A stretch of 9,159 nt of DNA from a virus (taxonomy: Duplodnaviria > Heunggongvirae > Uroviricota > Caudoviricetes): IMG/VR virus record IMGVR_UViG_2671181028_000018; one strand, 5' to 3'. Position 1 is the stretch's first letter. Each line of letters starts with the position of its first letter. The notes beneath the pieces were generated by a model. The model was not told the DNA's origin. It searched no databases and worked only from the letters and a program-made list of their open reading frames with translations. The position numbers and the translations under genes are program-made. Shown here piece after piece: positions 378 through 8,799 of the stretch.

Positions 378-566
378 TCACTGCTGTTCTCCGATAATAC
401 CAAGTTCAAGAAGGGCAATTCTGGAAAGTATGGAATTATCATTGAGAAGATAAGGTTCATATTTTCTCATCTTAATGGCATCTTCAGTAAACTCCCGGTT
501 ACTGAGCAGAACACCAATATCAAAACAACCTTCAGACGTATTAACGTTTGGTAATAACGTTTCCAT
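378..566 (-). CDS. Hypothetical small protein (62 aa), uncertain
   Basis: Internal start of the 378..671 minus ORF: ATG at 566..564 preceded by GAGGA with a 7-nt spacer (forward 'tcctc' 574..578). Translation METLLPNVNTSEGCFDIGVLLSNREF... No recognisable family; overlaps competing plus-strand ORFs; locally AT-rich. Confidence 0.25.
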   Translation of the reverse strand: METLLPNVNTSEGCFDIGVLLSNREFTEDAIKMRKYEPYLLNDNSILSRIALLELGIIGEQQ

Positions 567-1133
567 TATCGCGTCCTCAACAATGAATTTTGTGATGCAG
601 TGCCTGGTGCCTCCAGGTGACGTTAACCAGTTAACAATTAACGCCGGATACAGAGAATCCACCCATAACACTGTTTTTGGTTTTAACTGTTCCGCGTGCG
701 CTCAGCCGCATTCACCGCATCACAAAATTCACTTTAAAAAGGGCGGCAGAGCAGTCACGGAGTAAAACTGATACCGCCAAACGTCACCAGAAAATTGATA
801 ACAGAGGGCGTTGCAGCGGGGTTGTCACTTAAGCGTATGGTCAACCTGACAACCCGGTGTCCTCAACGGGGAAGAAATAACCCCGCCATACTTACCGCCG
901 CGCCATTTCGCGGAGTGCCACAACCGGAAGCGCACGGTCGACGAAAATTTAACGACAGGCTATCTATGAACCAGCAACCTCGCCGTGCGCTTTCGCGTTA
1001 TGCTCTGACTTTTCAGAGAAATATCCTTTCAGTAAACTGTCAGTGCCGGATGTTCACCCGTGTCCGGCGCACGCACTCCACTTTACCCGTGGAGAACTCC
1101 TTAATTACCAACCTTAGCTTCGTTGGTTAGCTA

Positions 1134-1985: not shown

Positions 1986-2462
1986 TTAAGTTCCTGTCTT
2001 GGTGATGTTCTGGCTTTTCCGTTTTGATTCTTGATTTTTCAGATAGTTAGCTACCTTCATTTCCATTGCGGCAATGTAGGCGCGAACGTCATGATCAACC
2101 CAACTAGGCTCCGTAGCATTTCCAGATAAGAGGAAAGCCACAATTGCTCTTTTTTCATCAGAGGCGGCTTGATAAAGGCTGTTTATGTCTAAAAGTTCAC
2201 TTTTTGTATCTGAAGTGGATGGGGTTGGTATGGGGTATTCGTTAAGCCCCCAATGCTCTGGACCAACCACATCAGAAAAGAAACGCCATAGTTCTGGAAG
2301 TTTGTCTTTACTTATCGAACCTTTCTTAATCCAGTCATGGATTGATGGTGGTTGGACTTTGAAATGACGTGCGATTTCCGCCTTTGATTTGACGGCTCCT
2401 GATGCAATTTTTTTGTTAATGGCCTGCTCTATCGCTCGGCCTAAGTCTTTACCACTAAGCAT
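1986..2462 (-). CDS. Prophage repressor, HTH type without a peptidase S24 domain (RacR-like, 158 aa)
   Basis: ORF-track ORF. N-terminal HTH-like segment KSKAEIARHFKVQPPSIHDWIKKG. No LexA/CI-type autocleavage motif seen. Divergent from the cro-like gene and flanked on both sides by operator clusters. AGGAG lies 11 nt upstream of ATG 2462..2460. Confidence 0.8.
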   Translation of the reverse strand: MLSGKDLGRAIEQAINKKIASGAVKSKAEIARHFKVQPPSIHDWIKKGSISKDKLPELWRFFSDVVGPEHWGLNEYPIPTPSTSDTKSELLDINSLYQAASDEKRAIVAFLLSGNATEPSWVDHDVRAYIAAMEMKVANYLKNQESKRKSQNITKTGT

Positions 2463-2586: not shown

Positions 2587-2910
2587 ATGAAAAAAGATAA
2601 CTATTCATTCAAACGAGCTTGTGCTGTTGTCGGTGGGCAATCAGCAATGGCTAGGCTTTTAGGTGTATCTCCTCCAAGCGTAAATCAATGGATCAAAGGT
2701 GTACGTCAGTTGCCTGCTGAGAGATGTCCTGCGATTGAACGAGCAACAAAAGGTGGTGTCCTGTGTGAAGAACTTCGTCCTGATGTTGATTGGACATACT
2801 TACGACGCTCGTCATGTTATTCGCAGAATATGTCGATGAAGCAACCAAATGACGAAAACGATCATACCCGAAGCATCAAGAGGCAAATGATTCATGAAAA
2901 TCAAACATGA
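2587..2910 (+). CDS. ydaS: Cro-like HTH regulator of the YdaS family
   Basis: ATG 2587 with GGAG 8 nt upstream. The ORF track's 2566 start is a GTG upstream of the predicted transcript start. Motif SFKRACAVVGGQSAMARLLGVSPPSVNQWIKGVRQLPAERCPAIERAT is characteristic of YdaS-type proteins as I recall them. First gene after pR, divergent from the repressor. Confidence 0.8.
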   Translation: MKKDNYSFKRACAVVGGQSAMARLLGVSPPSVNQWIKGVRQLPAERCPAIERATKGGVLCEELRPDVDWTYLRRSSCYSQNMSMKQPNDENDHTRSIKRQMIHENQT

Positions 2911-3319
2911 GCACATCCGCATGGCGATGAATGCCTGGGCATACCCTGATGGTGAGAAAGTTCCTGCAGCTGAAATAGCCCGGACTTATTTCGAACTGGG
3001 GATGACGTTCCCTGAACTGTACGACGACAGCCATCCGGAAGCCCTGGCCCGTAATACACAGAAAATTTTCCGTTGGCTGGATAAAGACACCCCTGATGCT
3101 GTTGAAAAAATTCAGGCTCTGTTACCGGCGATCGAAAAGGCAATGCCGCCTCTGCTGGTGGCCCGTATGCGCAGTCACAGCTCTGAGTATTACCGGGAGA
3201 TTGTCGAACGGCGGGATCGGCTGGTGAAGGATGTCGACGATTTTGTTGCGTCAGCGGTTGTTTTGTATGACCAGATGAATCGCGGCGGCCCGGCAGGGAA
3301 TGCTGTGGTGATGCACTAA
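2894..3319 (+). CDS. ydaT: YdaT-family protein (CII-like regulator, historically called a toxin)
   Basis: ATG 2894 with AAGAGG 10 nt upstream; overlaps the ydaS-like gene by 17 nt. Begins MKIKHEHI..., 141 aa, immediately downstream of the ydaS-like gene as in the Rac immunity region. Confidence 0.75.
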   Translation: MKIKHEHIRMAMNAWAYPDGEKVPAAEIARTYFELGMTFPELYDDSHPEALARNTQKIFRWLDKDTPDAVEKIQALLPAIEKAMPPLLVARMRSHSSEYYREIVERRDRLVKDVDDFVASAVVLYDQMNRGGPAGNAVVMH

Positions 3320-3341
3320 AAGCACGGTGTTCGGGGGTTTT

Positions 3342-4304
3342 ATGAGCAGCAAGCTTCATGGTCTTGTCTGGGAAGGGTGCGCCTTCACCGGCATGATCTT
3401 ATCCAGGGTGGCGGTTATGGCCCGTCTTGCAGACTACAGCAATGACGAGGGTGTGTCATGGCCTGCCATTGAAACTATCCGGCGTCAGATCGGTGCAAGA
3501 AGTGAATCCACAGTGAAATCGGCTATTGCAGAACTGGCGAAAGAGGGCTGGCTGACGAAGGAAGAGCGTAAGGTCGGTGGGCGTAATGTAAGCAATATCT
3601 ATCGGCTTAATGTGGAAAAACTCGAAGCAGCAGCTGCGGCGGCGCGTGAGTCATATAAACCGAAAAGAAAAATTAGCCCGGCAAAAAATGACCAGTTAAC
3701 AGTTGACCCGTCAAATATTGCCCCCTCAACGGTTGACCCGTCAAATTTTGATGGATCAACTGTTGATAAAAAACTGCCGATTAGGGGGGCGATGATTGAC
3801 CCCGATCCGTCAGTATTAAAACCTGATCCGTCAGATAAAAGATCTTCTTGTCCGGACGCTTCGCAACCGGACCCGCAGACGGCTGAACAGGATTTTTTAA
3901 CCCGACACCCTGACGCGGTTGTGTTCAGTGCGAAAAAACGCCAGTGGGGAAGTCAGGAAGATTTGGTGTGCGCACAGTGGATCTGGGGACGAATCGTGAG
4001 TCTTTACGAGCAGGCGGCCAGCTATGATGGCGAGATCACTAGACCGAAAGAACCCAACTGGACAGCATGGGCCAATGACGTTCGCACAATGCGGATGCTG
4101 GATGGCAGAACTCACAGACAAATTTGTGAAATGTTTGGGCGTCTCCAGCGGGATTCGTTCTGGGTAAAAAACATCATGAGTCCGGCAAAACTCCGGGAAA
4201 AATGGGATGAACTGGTTATCCGCCTGGGGCGTTCGCCTGCGCAGCGTTGCGTGAATCACATTTCTGAACCGGACACTGAAATTCCGCCGGGCTTCAGGGG
4301 GTAA
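3342..4304 (+). CDS. Replication-initiator-like protein with N-terminal winged-helix/HTH domain (lambda O / YdaU position)
   Basis: ORF-track ORF 3327..4304; preferred start is ATG 3342 (GGGGG 4 nt upstream) rather than GTG 3327. N-terminus LVWEGCAFTGMILSRVAVMARLADYSNDEGVSWPAIETIRRQIGARSESTVKSAIAELAKEGWL looks like a phage replication-protein HTH. A repeat-encoded linker (TVDPSN... PDPS...) separates it from the C-terminal domain. Confidence 0.7.
   Translation: MSSKLHGLVWEGCAFTGMILSRVAVMARLADYSNDEGVSWPAIETIRRQIGARSESTVKSAIAELAKEGWLTKEERKVGGRNVSNIYRLNVEKLEAAAAAARESYKPKRKISPAKNDQLTVDPSNIAPSTVDPSNFDGSTVDKKLPIRGAMIDPDPSVLKPDPSDKRSSCPDASQPDPQTAEQDFLTRHPDAVVFSAKKRQWGSQEDLVCAQWIWGRIVSLYEQAASYDGEITRPKEPNWTAWANDVRTMRMLDGRTHRQICEMFGRLQRDSFWVKNIMSPAKLREKWDELVIRLGRSPAQRCVNHISEPDTEIPPGFRG
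3694..3834 (+). repeat. Iteron-like direct repeats inside the replication-initiator gene (candidate origin)
   Basis: GTTGACCCGTCAAAT occurs exactly twice (3702..3716 and 3732..3746, period 30 bp); the core TTGAC-CC-GTCAA is a near-dyad. GATCCGTCAG occurs twice (3804..3813 and 3825..3834, period 21 bp). A more A/T-rich stretch follows (3834..3850). Confidence 0.4.
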
Positions 4305-4344
4305 GTGTTAATTTCTGGTCATGAGGTAACTTTCAGGAGGGCTT

Positions 4345-4767
4345 GTGGCAAAAGTTTTTACACAAGAAGAGCGGGAAAAAATTAAAGGGCAGGTTGTTGA
4401 ACTCGTACGCCAGAGTGGGCGCGAGACGTTACGACAACTGGAAACTAAAACTGGGGCAACAAGATATCTGATGAGCGTTCTGGCCAGAGAGCTGGTTGCC
4501 AGTGGCGATGTATACAATTCTGGCTACGGGTTATTCCCGTCTGAACAGGCTCGTAAAGACTGGCAAAATGCCCGCAAAAAACTCTCAAGGGCAAAGCTGA
4601 AGAAACCATCTGCGGTTGATCCGGACCTTATCTGGTCATTACCTGATGGAGAAATACGTCGTTACGACAGGCATCATAATATAATTTGTACTGAGTGTCG
4701 TAAAAGCGAAGTTATGCAGCGCATATTGTCGTTTTATCAGGGGAATGTTCGGTATTTATTAAAGTGA
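4345..4767 (+). CDS. Hypothetical protein (140 aa), function unknown
   Basis: ORF-track ORF with a GTG start at 4345 and AGGAGG 4 nt upstream. Basic, with a Cys/His-containing C-terminus (HHNIICTECRK). Sits where a helicase-loader partner would be expected, but no DnaC/P-like motifs seen. The 3' end becomes A/T-rich. Confidence 0.5.
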   Translation: MAKVFTQEEREKIKGQVVELVRQSGRETLRQLETKTGATRYLMSVLARELVASGDVYNSGYGLFPSEQARKDWQNARKKLSRAKLKKPSAVDPDLIWSLPDGEIRRYDRHHNIICTECRKSEVMQRILSFYQGNVRYLLK

Positions 4768-5166: not shown

Positions 5167-8100
5167 ATGAGTGATGATAGCTATAAATTTCAAAAGTTAA
5201 CGCCGTTCAGCGATGTTGAGCTGGGTGTATATAAAAATGCGATAGATTTTGTTTTTGCCAATAACGATCTAAAAAATGTTGCGATATCAGGGCAATATAG
5301 CGCAGGAAAAAGTAGTCTTATCGAATCCTATAAGAAAAGTCATTCAAATATAAAGTTTGTTCATATCTCACTTGCTCATTTCAGATCGATTGAGGAAGCT
5401 GAAACTAATGAACCAAGTAAAGATATAAATGAAACCGCGTTAGAAGGTAAAGTTCTTAACCAGTTAATTCACCAAATTAATGCTGATGATATTCCCCAGA
5501 CACATTTTAAAGTAAAGAAAAAAATAAAAACTAACAACATTGTGATAAACACCATCTTTACGGTGTTATTTATCGCCATGATACTACATATCACGCTATT
5601 TAATAAGTGGGAAAAGTTTGTTTCACTTTTATCTGAAGGTAATATAAAGACACTACTTACATTATCAACTAAATACGATACGCTTTTAATTAGTGGGTTT
5701 ATATGTACTATCCTATCTTGTATTTTCATTTACAAGTTAATAAAAACCCAAAAGAATCGTAATGTTCTTAAGAAAATAAATTTACAGGGTAATGAAATAG
5801 AGATTTTTGAAGAAAGTAACGAGTCTTATTTCGATAGATATTTAAATGAAGTATTGTACCTTTTCGAGAACGTTGATGCTGATGCCATTGTTTTTGAAGA
5901 CATGGACCGTTTTAATAGTAATAACATCTTTGAACGTCTTCATGAGGTTAACAGACTGGTTAATATTCAACGGGACACAGCAGGGCACAAGAAATCGACG
6001 TTACGTTTTATTTACTTGCTTCGTGATGATATCTTCATTTCGAAGGATAGAACCAAATTCTTTGATTATATCATTCCAGTTATTCCTGTTGTTGATAGTT
6101 CTAACTCTTACGATCAGTTTATCACACATTTTGATGGTGGTGGTATTCTCAAGTTGTTCAATGAAAGATTTCTACAAGGGATGTCTTTATATATTGATGA
6201 TATGAGAATATTGAAGAATATTTATAACGAATTTCAAATTTATTATAACAAATTAAACACGACAGAACTTGACTGTAATAAAATGTTGGCCATTATTGCC
6301 TATAAGAATATTTTCCCAAGAGATTTTAGTGAGTTGCAACTTAATCAAGGTATGGTTTATACCATATTTAGTGAAAAAGACAACCTTATTATTGAAGAAA
6401 TAAAGAAAATAGAAAAAGATATTAGAGATAGAAAAAAAGAGATTGAGGCAATCAATGATGAAATACTCAACTCTAGTCAGGAGGTTGATGCTATATACGA
6501 TAAGGAATTATCTAGATATAATAATCATCCTCACTATAATCAGGCTGAGAAAGCTGATATAGCAAAGAGAAGGGCGGCTAGAAAAGAAAGTGTTGAAAAT
6601 AAATTTAATGGTAAAATAGAAGAAATTAATGAGCTTATATCAAGATCAAGAGAAAGTTTGGTTGATTCTAGAAACAAAAGACTTAAAGAAGTAATAACTA
6701 GAGAAAACATTGATGAAATATTTAAACTCACCTATACCAATGAAATTGGAGAGGAAAGAGACTTTAATGAAATAAAAAGCAGTGAGCATTTTGACTTGCT
6801 TAAATACCTTATTCGTGATGGTTATATTGATGAAACCTATACCGACTATATGACCTATTTTTATGAAAATAGCCTGAGTCGAATTGATAAGATGTTTTTA
6901 CGCAGCATTACCGATCAAAAAGGCAAAGAGTTCACTTATCAACTCAAGAACCCCAAGCTGGTCGTTGCCCGCCTTCGAGAAGTGGATTTTGAACAGGAAG
7001 AGGCGCTTAATTTTGATTTATTAGCTTATCTGCTTCAAACGCCAGCCCAGGTAAACTTAATAAAACGTTTATTCAAACAACTAAGAAAAGATAGAAGAGT
7101 TGAGTTTATTCGTGGTTACTTTGAAACTGAGAGGGCTCAGCCTGTCTTCATTAATCGATTAAATACACAGTGGCCTGAGTTTTTTTCTTATGCGCTGACA
7201 GAGAGTGAATTTTCTGCTGATTGGGTTAAACTCTACTCTATAGGCACGTTTTATTATTCTGCCAATGACGCCATCGAGGCCATTAATATTGATGATTGTC
7301 TGACTGATTACATCTCTGATTCGGCAGGTTATTTAGCAATATCAGAACCGAAGGTTGACAAATTAATTAGTGGTTTTAAGTTGCTTAACGTCTCTTTTGT
7401 CAGTATTAAATTTGAAAACGCAAATAAAGTACTCTTTGATGCGGTTTACCAGCATTCACTTTATGATATTAATTTTTCCAACCTGACCTTAATGCTGAGT
7501 AAGGTTTACACGCTTAATAGTGAAGATGATATTCGCCATAAGAACTATACACTAGTGATGTCACAACCTGATTCTCCCTTGGCTAGTTATGTTAATAACC
7601 ATATTAGGGACTATCTGGATATGGTTTTATCTAGTTGTGATGGTTCAATCGTGGATGATGAATCCATTGTTTTATCCGTTCTTAATAATGAGGGAATATC
7701 TGATGAACAAAAAGGCCAGTATATAAACGCTTTGCAAACTTTCGTGACATCTCTGAGTGAGGTTGAGAGCGAATCTTTATGGTCATCTTTGTTGGATAAA
7801 GATAGAGCAGTGTGCTCTGAGGAAAATATTGTCTCTTATTTTGAACATGTTGATGGACTGGATGACTCACTTATCGAATTTATCAATAGAACTGATGTAG
7901 ACCTGAATTTTCAAAATATTAATATTGATAACGAGCTTAAAGGTAAATTATTTAAATCGATTGTTATCTGTAATGATTTATCAAATGATAAATATGAAAA
8001 ATTAATTTGCTCACTAAATATTATTTGTAAAACATCCTTTAGCGCTAGTAATATCGCGAGTGATAAGTTCAAAATATTAGTGGATAAAAATATTATTCGT

Positions 8101-8799
8101 ATGAATGTTGCGCCACTTAATTTCATACGAGATAACTATTCAGAGCAACTTTCCTATTATATTCATAAGAATATCAGGGCATACGTTGAATTAATGACGA
8201 TTGATAACTTTATTTTGGATGAGGCTATATCAATACTTTCTTGGAAAGTTGATGATGATTTGAAAGTTAAGCTACTCGAGTTTGTTAAAACTCCGTTGGC
8301 TATTTATAGTAAGAATTACTCTCAGGTCGTTAATGACTATATTTTAGAAAATAATTTTAAACCAGATGAACTTCTAATCTTGACGTCATCTTATAAAACT
8401 TGGGGAACCTCTACTCAGTCGCTCATCTTGAGTCGAGCAATACAGGATATATCAGCATTGATAGCAAGTCCTAATGATGTTTCTGAACCGTTACTAAAAA
8501 ACCTGTTTGTCGCAGAGGGACTGAATATGCAGAATAAAATAGCACTGCTAATCGCTTTGTTGCCGGGTAAGGATTTGAGTAAGACGACTTGCAAAGAGTA
8601 TCTTGATCTGCTTGGTTTATCGGAGTTCAGTAAAATTTTGGGGCGAGGCAAACCTAAAATTGAAGTTGATTCAACTAATCAAAGTTTATTAACAGCATTA
8701 AGAGATAACCACTTCTTCTCTGATTTTGAGGTGGATAATGAAAATCCCACTTATTATAAAATAACAAGGCGGCGCTCTATGTTTGGCTCAGATACATAG
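5167..8799 (+). CDS. Large P-loop NTPase with transmembrane insertion in the NTPase domain (KAP-type / YobI-like / Tmn-like), 1210 aa
   Basis: ORF-track ORF. Walker A GQYSAGKS (5290..5313). Two hydrophobic helices between the Walker motifs: IVINTIFTVLFIAMILHITLF (about 5536..5601) and LLISGFICTILSCIFIYKLI (about 5680..5745). Walker B IVFEDMDR (5887..5910), matching the hhhhDDxDR form typical of KAP NTPases. A Lys/Glu-rich coiled-coil-like stretch (roughly residues 400 to 520) and a long C-terminal region without recognisable motifs follow. Codon usage is strongly A/T-biased, unlike the flanks. Confidence 0.9.
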   Translation: MSDDSYKFQKLTPFSDVELGVYKNAIDFVFANNDLKNVAISGQYSAGKSSLIESYKKSHSNIKFVHISLAHFRSIEEAETNEPSKDINETALEGKVLNQLIHQINADDIPQTHFKVKKKIKTNNIVINTIFTVLFIAMILHITLFNKWEKFVSLLSEGNIKTLLTLSTKYDTLLISGFICTILSCIFIYKLIKTQKNRNVLKKINLQGNEIEIFEESNESYFDRYLNEVLYLFENVDADAIVFEDMDRFNSNNIFERLHEVNRLVNIQRDTAGHKKSTLRFIYLLRDDIFISKDRTKFFDYIIPVIPVVDSSNSYDQFITHFDGGGILKLFNERFLQGMSLYIDDMRILKNIYNEFQIYYNKLNTTELDCNKMLAIIAYKNIFPRDFSELQLNQGMVYTIFSEKDNLIIEEIKKIEKDIRDRKKEIEAINDEILNSSQEVDAIYDKELSRYNNHPHYNQAEKADIAKRRAARKESVENKFNGKIEEINELISRSRESLVDSRNKRLKEVITRENIDEIFKLTYTNEIGEERDFNEIKSSEHFDLLKYLIRDGYIDETYTDYMTYFYENSLSRIDKMFLRSITDQKGKEFTYQLKNPKLVVARLREVDFEQEEALNFDLLAYLLQTPAQVNLIKRLFKQLRKDRRVEFIRGYFETERAQPVFINRLNTQWPEFFSYALTESEFSADWVKLYSIGTFYYSANDAIEAINIDDCLTDYISDSAGYLAISEPKVDKLISGFKLLNVSFVSIKFENANKVLFDAVYQHSLYDINFSNLTLMLSKVYTLNSEDDIRHKNYTLVMSQPDSPLASYVNNHIRDYLDMVLSSCDGSIVDDESIVLSVLNNEGISDEQKGQYINALQTFVTSLSEVESESLWSSLLDKDRAVCSEENIVSYFEHVDGLDDSLIEFINRTDVDLNFQNINIDNELKGKLFKSIVICNDLSNDKYEKLICSLNIICKTSFSASNIASDKFKILVDKNIIRMNVAPLNFIRDNYSEQLSYYIHKNIRAYVELMTIDNFILDEAISILSWKVDDDLKVKLLEFVKTPLAIYSKNYSQVVNDYILENNFKPDELLILTSSYKTWGTSTQSLILSRAIQDISALIASPNDVSEPLLKNLFVAEGLNMQNKIALLIALLPGKDLSKTTCKEYLDLLGLSEFSKILGRGKPKIEVDSTNQSLLTALRDNHFFSDFEVDNENPTYYKITRRRSMFGSDT

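What the first reader, a model, noticed from the sequence alone, without database searches (positions are those of the whole stretch)
3694..3834. Iteron-like direct repeats inside the replication-initiator-like gene: candidate origin of replication
An exact 15-mer GTTGACCCGTCAAAT appears twice 30 bp apart and GATCCGTCAG twice 21 bp apart, all inside the linker-coding part of the initiator-like ORF and followed by a more A/T-rich stretch. In lambda, the origin iterons lie inside the O gene between its two domains; this looks like the same arrangement. The repeats also encode the repetitive peptide linker (TVDPSN...), so selection acts at both DNA and protein level.
Basis: partly seen in the sequence, partly recalled or inferred. 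Interest (0 to 1): 0.55.

Follow-up and report, generated by a model that had tools for sequence, protein, structure and literature searches.

The report
Replication origin inside prophage initiator gene
The repeats are real and almost certainly form the replication origin of an E. coli lambda-like prophage, sitting inside its own initiator gene as in phage lambda; this is a well-supported but fairly ordinary new example of a textbook arrangement.

Summary
GTTGACCCGTCAAAT occurs at 3702 and 3732, and GATCCGTCAG at 3804 and 3825.

These repeats belong to a larger array of 12-bp dyad-symmetric sites (TTGA-SSSS-TCAA) in strict 15-bp phase from 3688 to 3777. After the array come two invariant GATCCGTCA sites, a modestly A/T-rich stretch and a conserved inverted repeat (GTCCGG-N11-CCGGAC).

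All of this lies in the part of gene 3342-4304 that codes a predicted disordered linker. The gene product has a winged-helix N-domain. Its C-domain is homologous to that of lambda O (39% identity, E 5e-26).

Three results show that selection acts on the DNA rather than the peptide:
- Across eight lineages from six genera, synonymous codons are retained at 0.64-0.97 in the linker against 0.35-0.55 in the folded domains, although amino-acid identity is lowest in the linker.
- In other genera the site occurs in both orientations in the same register, coding DPS or EGS.
- Sister initiators with other N-domains but the same C-domain carry their own 23-bp dyad repeats, which are out of reading frame.

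The lambda-like origin reading is supported, but no binding or replication assay exists. The A/T-rich element is weaker than lambda's and no P gene follows. I rate this a new member of a known kind, of moderate interest.

The parts
3342..4304 (+). Replication initiator gene (320 aa), lambda-O-like; the candidate origin lies inside it
   Evidence: ORF. PHROG 391 'replication initiation O-like' matches over the full length, E 1.5e-114. The DNA is 100% identical to a gene in E. coli DEC9B annotated as helix-turn-helix protein, sitting next to racR, a ydaS-like gene and ydaT.
3342..3653 (+). Codes the N-terminal winged-helix DNA-binding domain (aa 1-104), the presumed site-recognition module
   Evidence: Pfam HTH_36 at aa 25-71, E 2e-6. 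AlphaFold2 gives pLDDT 71-87 with a helix-turn-helix plus beta-hairpin layout. Foldseek finds only generic winged-helix regulators and DnaD-N, with weak E-values of 5e-3 to 3e-2.
3666..3845 (+). Codes the disordered linker (aa 109-168) that holds all the repeats
   Evidence: pLDDT is below 50 over residues 109-145 and 147-163. This is the most length-variable part of the 30-sequence protein alignment.
3688..3777 (.). Iteron array: six 15-bp registers. Good 12-bp sites at 3703-3714 (TTGACCCGTCAA), 3718-3729 (TTGCCCCCTCAA), 3733-3744 (TTGACCCGTCAA) and 3748-3759 (TTGATGGATCAA). Degenerate copies at 3688-3699 and 3763-3774.
   Evidence: The same array in the same register occurs in Erwinia, Edwardsiella, Salmonella, Morganella, a metagenome contig and phage SfIV, with sites in both orientations.
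3781..3807 (.). Two further degenerate sites: TTAGGGGGGCGA (3781-3792) and TTGACCCCGATC (3796-3807)
   Evidence: Read from the sequence. Homologous positions in other genera read TTAAGGGGTCAA followed by TTGACCCCGATC.
3804..3813 (.). First GATCCGTCAG site (variant of the core TGAYCCGTCA; contains a Dam GATC)
   Evidence: The nine bases GATCCGTCA are invariant in all eight lineages compared.
3825..3834 (.). Second GATCCGTCAG site
   Evidence: It is invariant in all eight lineages, while the spacer between the two copies varies in sequence and length (18, 21 or 24 bp).
3810..3849 (.). Modestly A/T-rich stretch (68% A+T), the candidate unwinding element, overlapping the second GATCCGTCAG
   Evidence: It occupies the same position as the A-rich stretch in types B and C and as lambda's 80% A+T element.
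3850..3872 (.). Conserved inverted repeat GTCCGG-N11-CCGGAC at the junction with the C-domain module
   Evidence: Read (I8). It is conserved at synonymous sites in all eight lineages and is also present in initiator types B and C. Lambda has a palindrome in the equivalent place.
3678..3887 (.). Extent of nucleotide-level constraint, my estimate of the whole origin
   Evidence: The same-codon fraction is 0.64-0.83 over 3678-3767 and 0.88-0.97 over 3768-3887, against 0.35-0.55 in the two folded domains. Single-codon columns number 31 of 45 here against 21 of 190 elsewhere, Fisher p 1.4e-14.
3885..4241 (+). Codes the C-terminal domain homologous to the lambda O C-domain (aa 182-300)
   Evidence: BLASTP against lambda O aa 171-277 gives 39% identity, E 5e-26. 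hhalign gives probability 99.6%. pLDDT is 78-94.
4239..4301 (+). Codes the C-terminal tail ...EPDTEIPPGFRG, which resembles the last 21 residues of DnaT
   Evidence: NCBIfam NF002770 (DnaT) positions 159-179 of 179, E 0.004, far below the family cut-off. This tail type goes with the absence of a lambda-P gene downstream.

Best explanation
Window 3678-3887 is the origin of replication of a lambdoid (Rac/Qin-like) E. coli prophage, embedded in its own initiator gene.

Proposed mechanism, all steps inferred:
1. The initiator's N-terminal winged-helix domain, probably as dimers, binds the 12-bp dyad-symmetric sites TTGA-SSSS-TCAA packed at 15-bp intervals (3688-3777).
2. It also binds the two conserved GATCCGTCA sites (3804, 3825).
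3. The resulting nucleoprotein complex destabilises the adjacent moderately A/T-rich DNA (3810-3849), which is bounded by the conserved GTCCGG-N11-CCGGAC repeat.
4. The lambda-O-type C-terminal domain and tail then bring in the host replicative helicase. No lambda-P gene follows here, so this presumably goes through host DnaC-DnaB.

Because the site period is 15 bp (five codons), the array reads through as a repetitive peptide (TVDPSN...) in a disordered linker. That peptide repeat is a by-product.

What is shown here: the anatomy, the homology of the C-domain, nucleotide-level constraint, and covariation of the repeats with the N-domain type. What is inferred: binding, unwinding and helicase recruitment.
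For: - Homology and position. The C-domain is homologous to the lambda O C-domain. The repeats lie just upstream of it in a predicted disordered linker, at the same relative gene position as lambda's annotated iterons.
- Nucleotide-level selection. In a codon alignment of eight lineages (E. coli x2, Erwinia, Edwardsiella, Salmonella, Morganella, a metagenome contig, phage SfIV), identical residues keep the identical codon at 0.64-0.97 within 3678-3887, against 0.35-0.55 in the folded domains. Amino-acid identity is lowest in this same stretch. The column test gives Fisher p 1.4e-14, and pairwise tests give p 1e-4 to 2e-4.
- Orientation. In Edwardsiella, Salmonella, Morganella and the metagenome contig, the register holds TTGACCCCTCAA (codes DPS) or its exact reverse complement TTGAGGGGTCAA (codes EGS). 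A peptide repeat cannot explain this, but a symmetric DNA site can.
- Covariation. Initiators with the same C-domain but other N-domains carry their own repeats at the same place. Type B has five copies of CATCGGGTCAAAATGACACGATG at 23-bp spacing. Type C has four copies of CCGCAAAC.AGAATGCGG at 23 bp. Both are dyad-symmetric and out of reading frame.
- Clustering. The sites cluster only in this stretch in every locus examined.
- Invariant pair. GATCCGTCA x2 is invariant while the spacer between the copies varies.
- Viable phages. Isolated phages SfIV and vB_EcoM-689R6 carry the sister initiator with the same core TGACCCGTCA array.
- Copy-number variation. In-frame polymorphism of -15 and -30 bp among E. 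coli parallels the iteron-number variation in Stx phages (PMC7466680).
Against: - No experiment shows binding or origin activity for this initiator type, and I found no paper naming these motifs.
- The A/T-rich element is weak: 68-70% A+T against 80% in lambda.
- The N-domain is not the lambda O N-domain family; only HTH_36 matches.
- No P or DnaC-like gene follows in this window. IS elements lie nearby in the 100%-identical DEC9B copy, so this particular copy may be inactive.
- The 15-bp spacing of 12-bp sites is tighter than in characterised iteron origins.
- High conservation of 3840-3880 could partly reflect its role as a recombination junction between modules.
Confidence: 0.8

Rival explanations
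1. The repeats are only a peptide-level feature. A low-complexity disordered linker expanded by slippage, and the DNA itself has no function.
For: The repeats lie in a predicted disordered linker. The period of 15 bp is a whole number of codons. The linker varies in length by multiples of five residues.
Against: Synonymous sites are far more conserved in the linker than in the folded domains, while the peptide is less conserved. The unit appears as its reverse complement in the same register, coding a different peptide. Sister initiators and lambda itself have out-of-frame repeats at the same place.
Confidence: 0.04
2. The DNA is constrained, but as something other than an origin. It could be a conserved junction that promotes recombination between N-domain and C-domain modules, or a set of operator sites through which the initiator regulates its own operon.
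For: The 3843-3875 segment is shared almost unchanged by initiator types A, A', B and C, exactly where the modules are exchanged. Mosaic breakpoints map to window 3804-3835.
Against: A junction sequence explains the shared GTCCGG..CCGGAC block. It does not explain type-specific arrays of dyad-symmetric sites that change with the N-domain. No promoter-like site lies in 3300-4400. In lambda the equivalent sites are the proven origin.
Confidence: 0.1
3. The constraint acts on the mRNA or on single-stranded DNA as a structured element, such as a hairpin that slows translation between the two domains.
For: The strand 3680-3885 folds much better than shuffles: -69.4 kcal/mol, z -4.46, 0 of 200 shuffles as good. 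A 33-nt imperfect inverted repeat spans 3698-3764 (I1).
Against: The proven lambda origin gives an even stronger signal, z -7.25, so the foldability is the expected by-product of tandem dyad-symmetric sites. Copy number, order and orientation of the units differ between lineages, so no single fold is conserved.
Confidence: 0.03

Closest known systems
Phage lambda ori within gene O (four iterons, A/T-rich region, palindrome)
   Same: The initiator has two domains with a homologous C-domain (39% identity, E 5e-26). Dyad-symmetric repeats lie in the linker-coding middle of the gene at the same relative position. They are followed by an A-rich stretch and an inverted repeat. The region shows excess single-strand foldability.
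   Different: The N-domain belongs to another family (HTH_36, not Phage_rep_O). The sites are 12 bp at 15-bp spacing, in frame, and occur in either orientation in relatives, whereas lambda has 19-bp iterons at 20-24 bp. The A/T-rich element is weaker (68-70% against 80%). No P gene follows. The tail is ...GFRG instead of lambda's ...DWIYGVDL type.
Stx phages 933W and P27 (lambda-type ori with six iterons; PMC7466680)
   Same: The number of iterons varies between relatives and adds or removes residues in the initiator linker. Here the variants are -15 and -30 bp.
   Different: Those phages have the lambda-type N-domain and lambda-type iterons. Binding and replication were measured there, not here.
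Shigella phages SfII and SfIV, E. coli e14-like phages, and K-12 CPS-53 yfdO (sister type A' initiators)
   Same: The same family across the full length (57% identity). They share the core TGACCCGTCA in 15-bp phase, the GATCCGTCAG pair, the inverted repeat, the GFRG tail and the lack of a P gene.
   Different: The flanks of the unit differ (TCTGACCCGTCAAAA, coding SDPSK). The pair spacing is 24 instead of 21 bp. The records annotate the gene only as 'primosomal protein' or 'replication protein O', with no origin feature.
Rac prophage of E. coli K-12 (oriJ, YdaU)
   Same: The neighbourhood is the same: racR, a ydaS-like gene and ydaT, then the replication gene. Rac is reported to have an active origin, oriJ (PMC3945230).
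   Different: K-12 YdaU is a DUF1376 protein followed by the DnaC-like YdaV. It belongs to a different initiator family, so oriJ is not this element.

Membership tests
Lambdoid O-type initiator with the origin inside its gene | C-terminal domain homologous to the lambda O C-domain | tested here: met
   BLASTP gives 39% identity over 119 aa, E 5e-26. hhalign gives probability 99.6%. PHROG 391 'replication initiation O-like' matches the full length.
Lambdoid O-type initiator with the origin inside its gene | N-terminal domain of the lambda O type (Pfam Phage_rep_O) | tested here: not met
   Pfam gives only HTH_36 and a sub-threshold DnaD_N match. BLASTP finds no alignment between the N-terminal halves. 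The domain is a different winged-helix module, so the protein is an O-family member by its C-domain only.
Lambdoid O-type initiator with the origin inside its gene | Array of at least three dyad-symmetric repeats in the linker-coding middle of the gene | tested here: met
   Four good and four degenerate 12-bp sites plus two GATCCGTCA sites lie in 3688-3834. The linker is defined by pLDDT. The repeat finder recovers lambda's four iterons as a control.
Lambdoid O-type initiator with the origin inside its gene | Repeat sequence follows the N-domain type, not the C-domain | tested here: met
   Types A/A', B and C share the C-domain but have different N-domains and different repeats.
Lambdoid O-type initiator with the origin inside its gene | Repeats constrained as DNA, not as peptide | tested here: met
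   Shown by synonymous-site conservation, by sites in both orientations, and by out-of-frame repeats in sister types.
Lambdoid O-type initiator with the origin inside its gene | A/T-rich unwinding element next to the repeats on the C-domain side | tested here: inconclusive
   Region 3810-3849 is 68% A+T and 3743-3782 is 70%, against 80% for lambda's 40-mer. The position is right but the composition is weak.
Lambdoid O-type initiator with the origin inside its gene | Partner helicase-loader gene (lambda P) immediately downstream | tested here: not met
   The next gene is a DUF977/Ren-like gene. Relatives with a ...WENTL or ...WEDVL tail do have a Phage_lambda_P gene downstream. Viable phages SfIV and 689R6 also lack one.
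Lambdoid O-type initiator with the origin inside its gene | Initiator binds the repeats and the fragment supports replication | not testable with these tools
   This needs EMSA or footprinting and an origin-plasmid assay.
Plasmid-type iteron origin (RepA, pi, TrfA class) | Direct repeats of 17-22 bp in one orientation at about 22-bp spacing, outside the rep gene, with DnaA boxes | tested here: not met
   The sites are 12 bp at 15-bp spacing, inside the gene, and in both orientations in relatives. DnaA-box-like matches are not enriched: 12 found against 10.7 expected. The features listed for this class come from my own knowledge.
Rac oriJ / YdaU (DUF1376) replication module | Initiator of the DUF1376 family followed by the DnaC-like YdaV | tested here: not met
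   K-12 ydaU is annotated as DUF1376 with ydaV downstream. The window protein is HTH_36 plus a lambda-O C-domain, with no loader gene.

The most novel reading that the evidence does not exclude
This may be a distinct origin design within the lambda O family. Short 12-bp palindromic sites, usable in either orientation, are packed every 15 bp (about 1.4 helical turns, so neighbouring sites face opposite sides of the helix). They would be read by a non-lambda winged-helix domain. The origin would fire without any phage helicase loader, because a DnaT-like ...GFRG tail plugs the initiator directly into the host helicase-loading machinery. The conserved GATC-bearing GATCCGTCA pair next to the unwinding element could add Dam/SeqA control.
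Probability: 0.25. Interest if true: 0.5.

Novelty: new member of a known kind. Interest (0 to 1): 0.35.

Why it matters
This initiator type, at 80% coverage or more, is present in 1515 of 5426 complete E. coli genomes. Sister types sit in Shigella serotype-converting phages and in K-12 cryptic prophages. None of the records examined annotates an origin.

Knowing the origin and its recognition sites has three uses. It lets one predict which prophages can still replicate. It allows the design of origin-specific incompatibility or interference tests. It also explains a puzzling 'peptide repeat' as a shadow of DNA sites.

The method may be useful for annotation more widely. A profile of synonymous-site conservation mapped the origin to about 200 bp without any experiment. 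The link between tail type and presence of a P gene gives a testable handle on how O-type initiators choose their route to the helicase.

Tried and rejected
- Link to Rac oriJ/YdaU: rejected, because K-12 YdaU is DUF1376, a different family.
- IMG/VR scan: it returned 80 loci that were all 99-100% identical, so it was useless for comparison.
- DnaA boxes: not enriched.
- Promoter and terminator scan of 3300-4400: no promoters, and one terminator-like site on the minus strand at chance level.
- RNA-structure reading: z is -4.46, but the proven lambda origin gives -7.25, so this is a by-product of the dyad-symmetric sites.
- PDB sequence search with the family profile: nothing meaningful.
- Foldseek against the PDB: only generic winged-helix hits at E above 1e-3.
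- Literature search for the motif strings and for SfII/SfIV origins: no relevant paper. A search for yfdO found nothing on replication.
- A synonymous-site positive control on lambda O relatives: not run. Available relatives are either at least 95% or at most 61% identical in the N-domain, so they probably differ in iteron specificity.
- Role of DnaT's extreme C-terminus: not defined in the paper read.

Full report
**What the window is.** The window is 100% identical over this gene to a prophage in E. coli DEC9B that sits next to potC. The gene order is dicB, DicF, ydfC, racR (1986-2462, minus strand), a ydaS/cro-like gene (2566-2910), a ydaT-like gene (2894-3319), the initiator (3342-4304), a DUF977/Ren-like gene (4345-4767) and a 1210-aa YobI/Tmn-like NTPase (5167-8799). 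The initiator matches PHROG 391 'replication initiation O-like' over its whole length (E 1.5e-114). In Pfam it matches only HTH_36 at residues 25-71. Copies covering at least 80% of the gene occur in 1515 of 5426 complete E. coli genomes.

**The observation.** The 15-mer pair is the longest local direct repeat in the window, and no simulated sequence out of 300 reached that length. The 10-mer pair alone is not unusual.

The repeats are part of a larger pattern. Tandem Repeats Finder gives periods of 15 and 30 over 3677-3766. In a 15-bp register the units read ATGACCAGTTAA, TTGACCCGTCAA, TTGCCCCCTCAA, TTGACCCGTCAA, TTGATGGATCAA and TTGATAAAAAAC. So the unit is a 12-bp site with symmetric ends, TTGA....TCAA, and a G/C-only centre. 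Sites with at most one mismatch occur nowhere else in the window. Two degenerate copies (3781-3792 and 3796-3807) and the GATCCGTCAG pair follow. The pair is a variant of the same core, TGAYCCGTCA.

**The protein around the repeats.** An AlphaFold2 model built on 30 homologues shows three parts:
- a winged-helix N-domain (residues 1-104, pLDDT 71-87);
- a disordered linker (residues 109-168, pLDDT below 50);
- a helical C-domain (residues 178-297, pLDDT 78-94).

The linker corresponds to nt 3666-3845, so every repeat lies in it. The C-domain is homologous to that of lambda O: 39% identity over 119 residues, E 5e-26, and hhalign probability 99.6%. The N-domain has no detectable similarity to lambda O. 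Structurally it resembles generic winged-helix DNA binders, but the scores are weak.

In lambda the four annotated iterons occupy gene nt 349-433 of 900, just upstream of the homologous C-domain. Here the repeats occupy gene nt 347-493 of 963.

First, I made a codon alignment of eight lineages: the window, a second E. coli allele, Erwinia tracheiphila, Edwardsiella, Salmonella, Morganella, a metagenome contig and Shigella phage SfIV. I asked how often identical residues keep the identical codon.
- In the two folded domains the fraction is 0.35-0.55.
- Over 3678-3767 it is 0.64-0.83.
- Over 3768-3887 it is 0.88-0.97.
- Amino-acid identity is at its lowest in this same stretch.

Columns in which all lineages use a single codon number 31 of 45 in the linker against 21 of 190 elsewhere (Fisher p 1.4e-14). 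Pairwise tests give p of about 1e-4 to 2e-4. Recent transfer does not explain this. The two GATCCGTCA copies are invariant, while the spacer between them differs in sequence and length (18, 21 or 24 bp).

Second, in Edwardsiella, Salmonella, Morganella and the metagenome contig, the same register holds either TTGACCCCTCAA, which codes Asp-Pro-Ser, or its exact reverse complement TTGAGGGGTCAA, which codes Glu-Gly-Ser. The two peptides are unrelated, but the DNA site is the same one turned round. That is what a symmetric protein dimer would tolerate.

Third, initiators with the same C-domain but different N-domains carry their own repeats at the same place.
- Type B (E. albertii, E. ruysiae and others) has five copies of CATCGGGTCAAAATGACACGATG at 23-bp spacing.
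- Type C (Citrobacter) has four copies of CCGCAAAC.AGAATGCGG at 23 bp.

Twenty-three is not a multiple of three, so successive copies fall in different reading frames and give no peptide repeat, just as in lambda (spacing 20, 24 and 23 bp). Repeat type therefore follows the DNA-binding domain, which is the hallmark of an initiator and its own origin. The mosaic breakpoint seen against phage genomes falls right after the repeats, at query nt 463-494, which is window 3804-3835.

**The rest of the origin.** In every type the repeats are followed by an A-rich stretch and then the block CTTCT(T/C)GTCCGGAcGCTtCGCAACCGGAC. This block contains the inverted repeat GTCCGG-N11-CCGGAC (window 3850-3872) and is conserved at synonymous sites even between types. 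Lambda has the same order: iterons, A/T-rich region, palindrome.

The A/T-rich element here is weak. Region 3810-3849 is 68% A+T and 3743-3782 is 70%, against 80% in lambda. Four GATC sites lie in 3754-3844, against 2.4 per kb in the window as a whole.

**Mechanism proposed.** Dimers of the N-domain would occupy the phased sites and the GATCCGTCA pair. The complex would open the adjacent A/T-rich DNA. The lambda-O-type C-domain would then recruit the helicase. All of these steps are inferred by analogy with lambda, whose origin, iterons and A/T-rich tract in the middle of O are experimentally established (PMC7466680).

The window has no P or DnaC-like gene after the initiator. Neither do the isolated phages SfIV and vB_EcoM-689R6, so such a gene is not needed next to this initiator type.

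**Rivals.**
- A purely peptide-level repeat is contradicted by the three results above.
- A recombination junction could explain the conserved 3843-3875 block. It cannot explain type-specific arrays of symmetric sites.
- An RNA or single-strand structure is suggested by a fold z-score of -4.46. The proven lambda origin scores -7.25, so this follows from having symmetric sites in tandem.
- DnaA boxes and promoters are not enriched.

**Comparison and novelty.** By its C-domain and by the architecture of its origin, this is a member of the lambdoid class with the origin inside the initiator gene. It differs from lambda in five ways:
- the family of its N-domain;
- the site design (12 bp every 15 bp, either orientation, in frame);
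- a weaker A/T-rich element;
- the lack of a P gene;
- a tail resembling that of DnaT.

It is not the Rac oriJ/YdaU module, which uses a DUF1376 protein. I found no paper describing these sites, and the records examined annotate no origin. I therefore rate it a new member of a known kind, well supported by computation and untested at the bench.

Noticed in passing
window 4239-4301; L003, L102, L103, L104 (genes after the initiator); L099, L105: The initiator's C-terminal tail tracks the presence of a helicase-loader gene. Homologues ending ...WENTL...WEDVL or ...IENDL (like lambda O's ...DWIYGVDL) are followed by a Phage_lambda_P gene in L102, L103 and L104; L003 has an unscanned 240-aa gene in that position. 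Homologues ending ...P(P/A)GFRG, which resembles the last 21 residues of DnaT (NCBIfam E 0.004), have no P gene; these are the window, SfIV, L096 and L105. One E. coli allele (L094) has the GFRG tail followed by a DnaC-like ATPase. This suggests two alternative docking motifs for helicase recruitment.
   Followed up: partly
L005 3333-3370; L013 3384-3422; L011 3358-3403: Initiator types B and C have different iterons. Both nevertheless share a second short repeat (ACAGAGAATAC / ACAGAGATTAC, period 12 or about 23-24 bp) in the A-rich stretch between the iterons and the conserved GTCCGG..CCGGAC block. It may be part of the unwinding element rather than an initiator site.
   Followed up: no
window 3754-3844: Four Dam sites (GATC at 3754, 3804, 3825 and 3841) lie within 90 bp, against 2.4 per kb in the window. 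Those at 3804 and 3825 lie within GATCCGTCA and are invariant in all eight lineages; the one at 3841 is conserved in six of the eight, not in SfIV or L105. Methylation or SeqA control of the origin is conceivable.
   Followed up: partly
L094 2501-3433; L095 2501-3448 (E. coli alleles of the window gene): There is in-frame copy-number polymorphism of the repeat array among E. coli. One allele lacks 30 bp (two 15-bp registers) and another lacks 15 bp. Protein clusters of 303-329 residues suggest further variants.
   Followed up: partly
window 5167-8799 (+): A 1210-aa YobI-like P-loop NTPase (Pfam E 8e-123) matches the PADLOC defence protein Tmn (E 5e-67). It sits directly after the replication module, where a relative (L094) carries a DnaC-like gene and a DUF1627 gene. 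It is probably an anti-phage cargo gene.
   Followed up: partly
window 741-792 (-): The DicF small RNA (Rfam RF00039, 76.7 bits) lies in this prophage, upstream of the dicB homologue annotated at about window 378-566.
   Followed up: no
L098 2324-3031 (E. coli K-12 DH1, CPS-53 prophage): The K-12 cryptic prophage CPS-53 keeps an N-terminally truncated pseudogene of the sister initiator (yfdO). Its repeat array and GATCCGTCAG pair are still intact, so it is an origin without its DNA-binding domain.
   Followed up: partly
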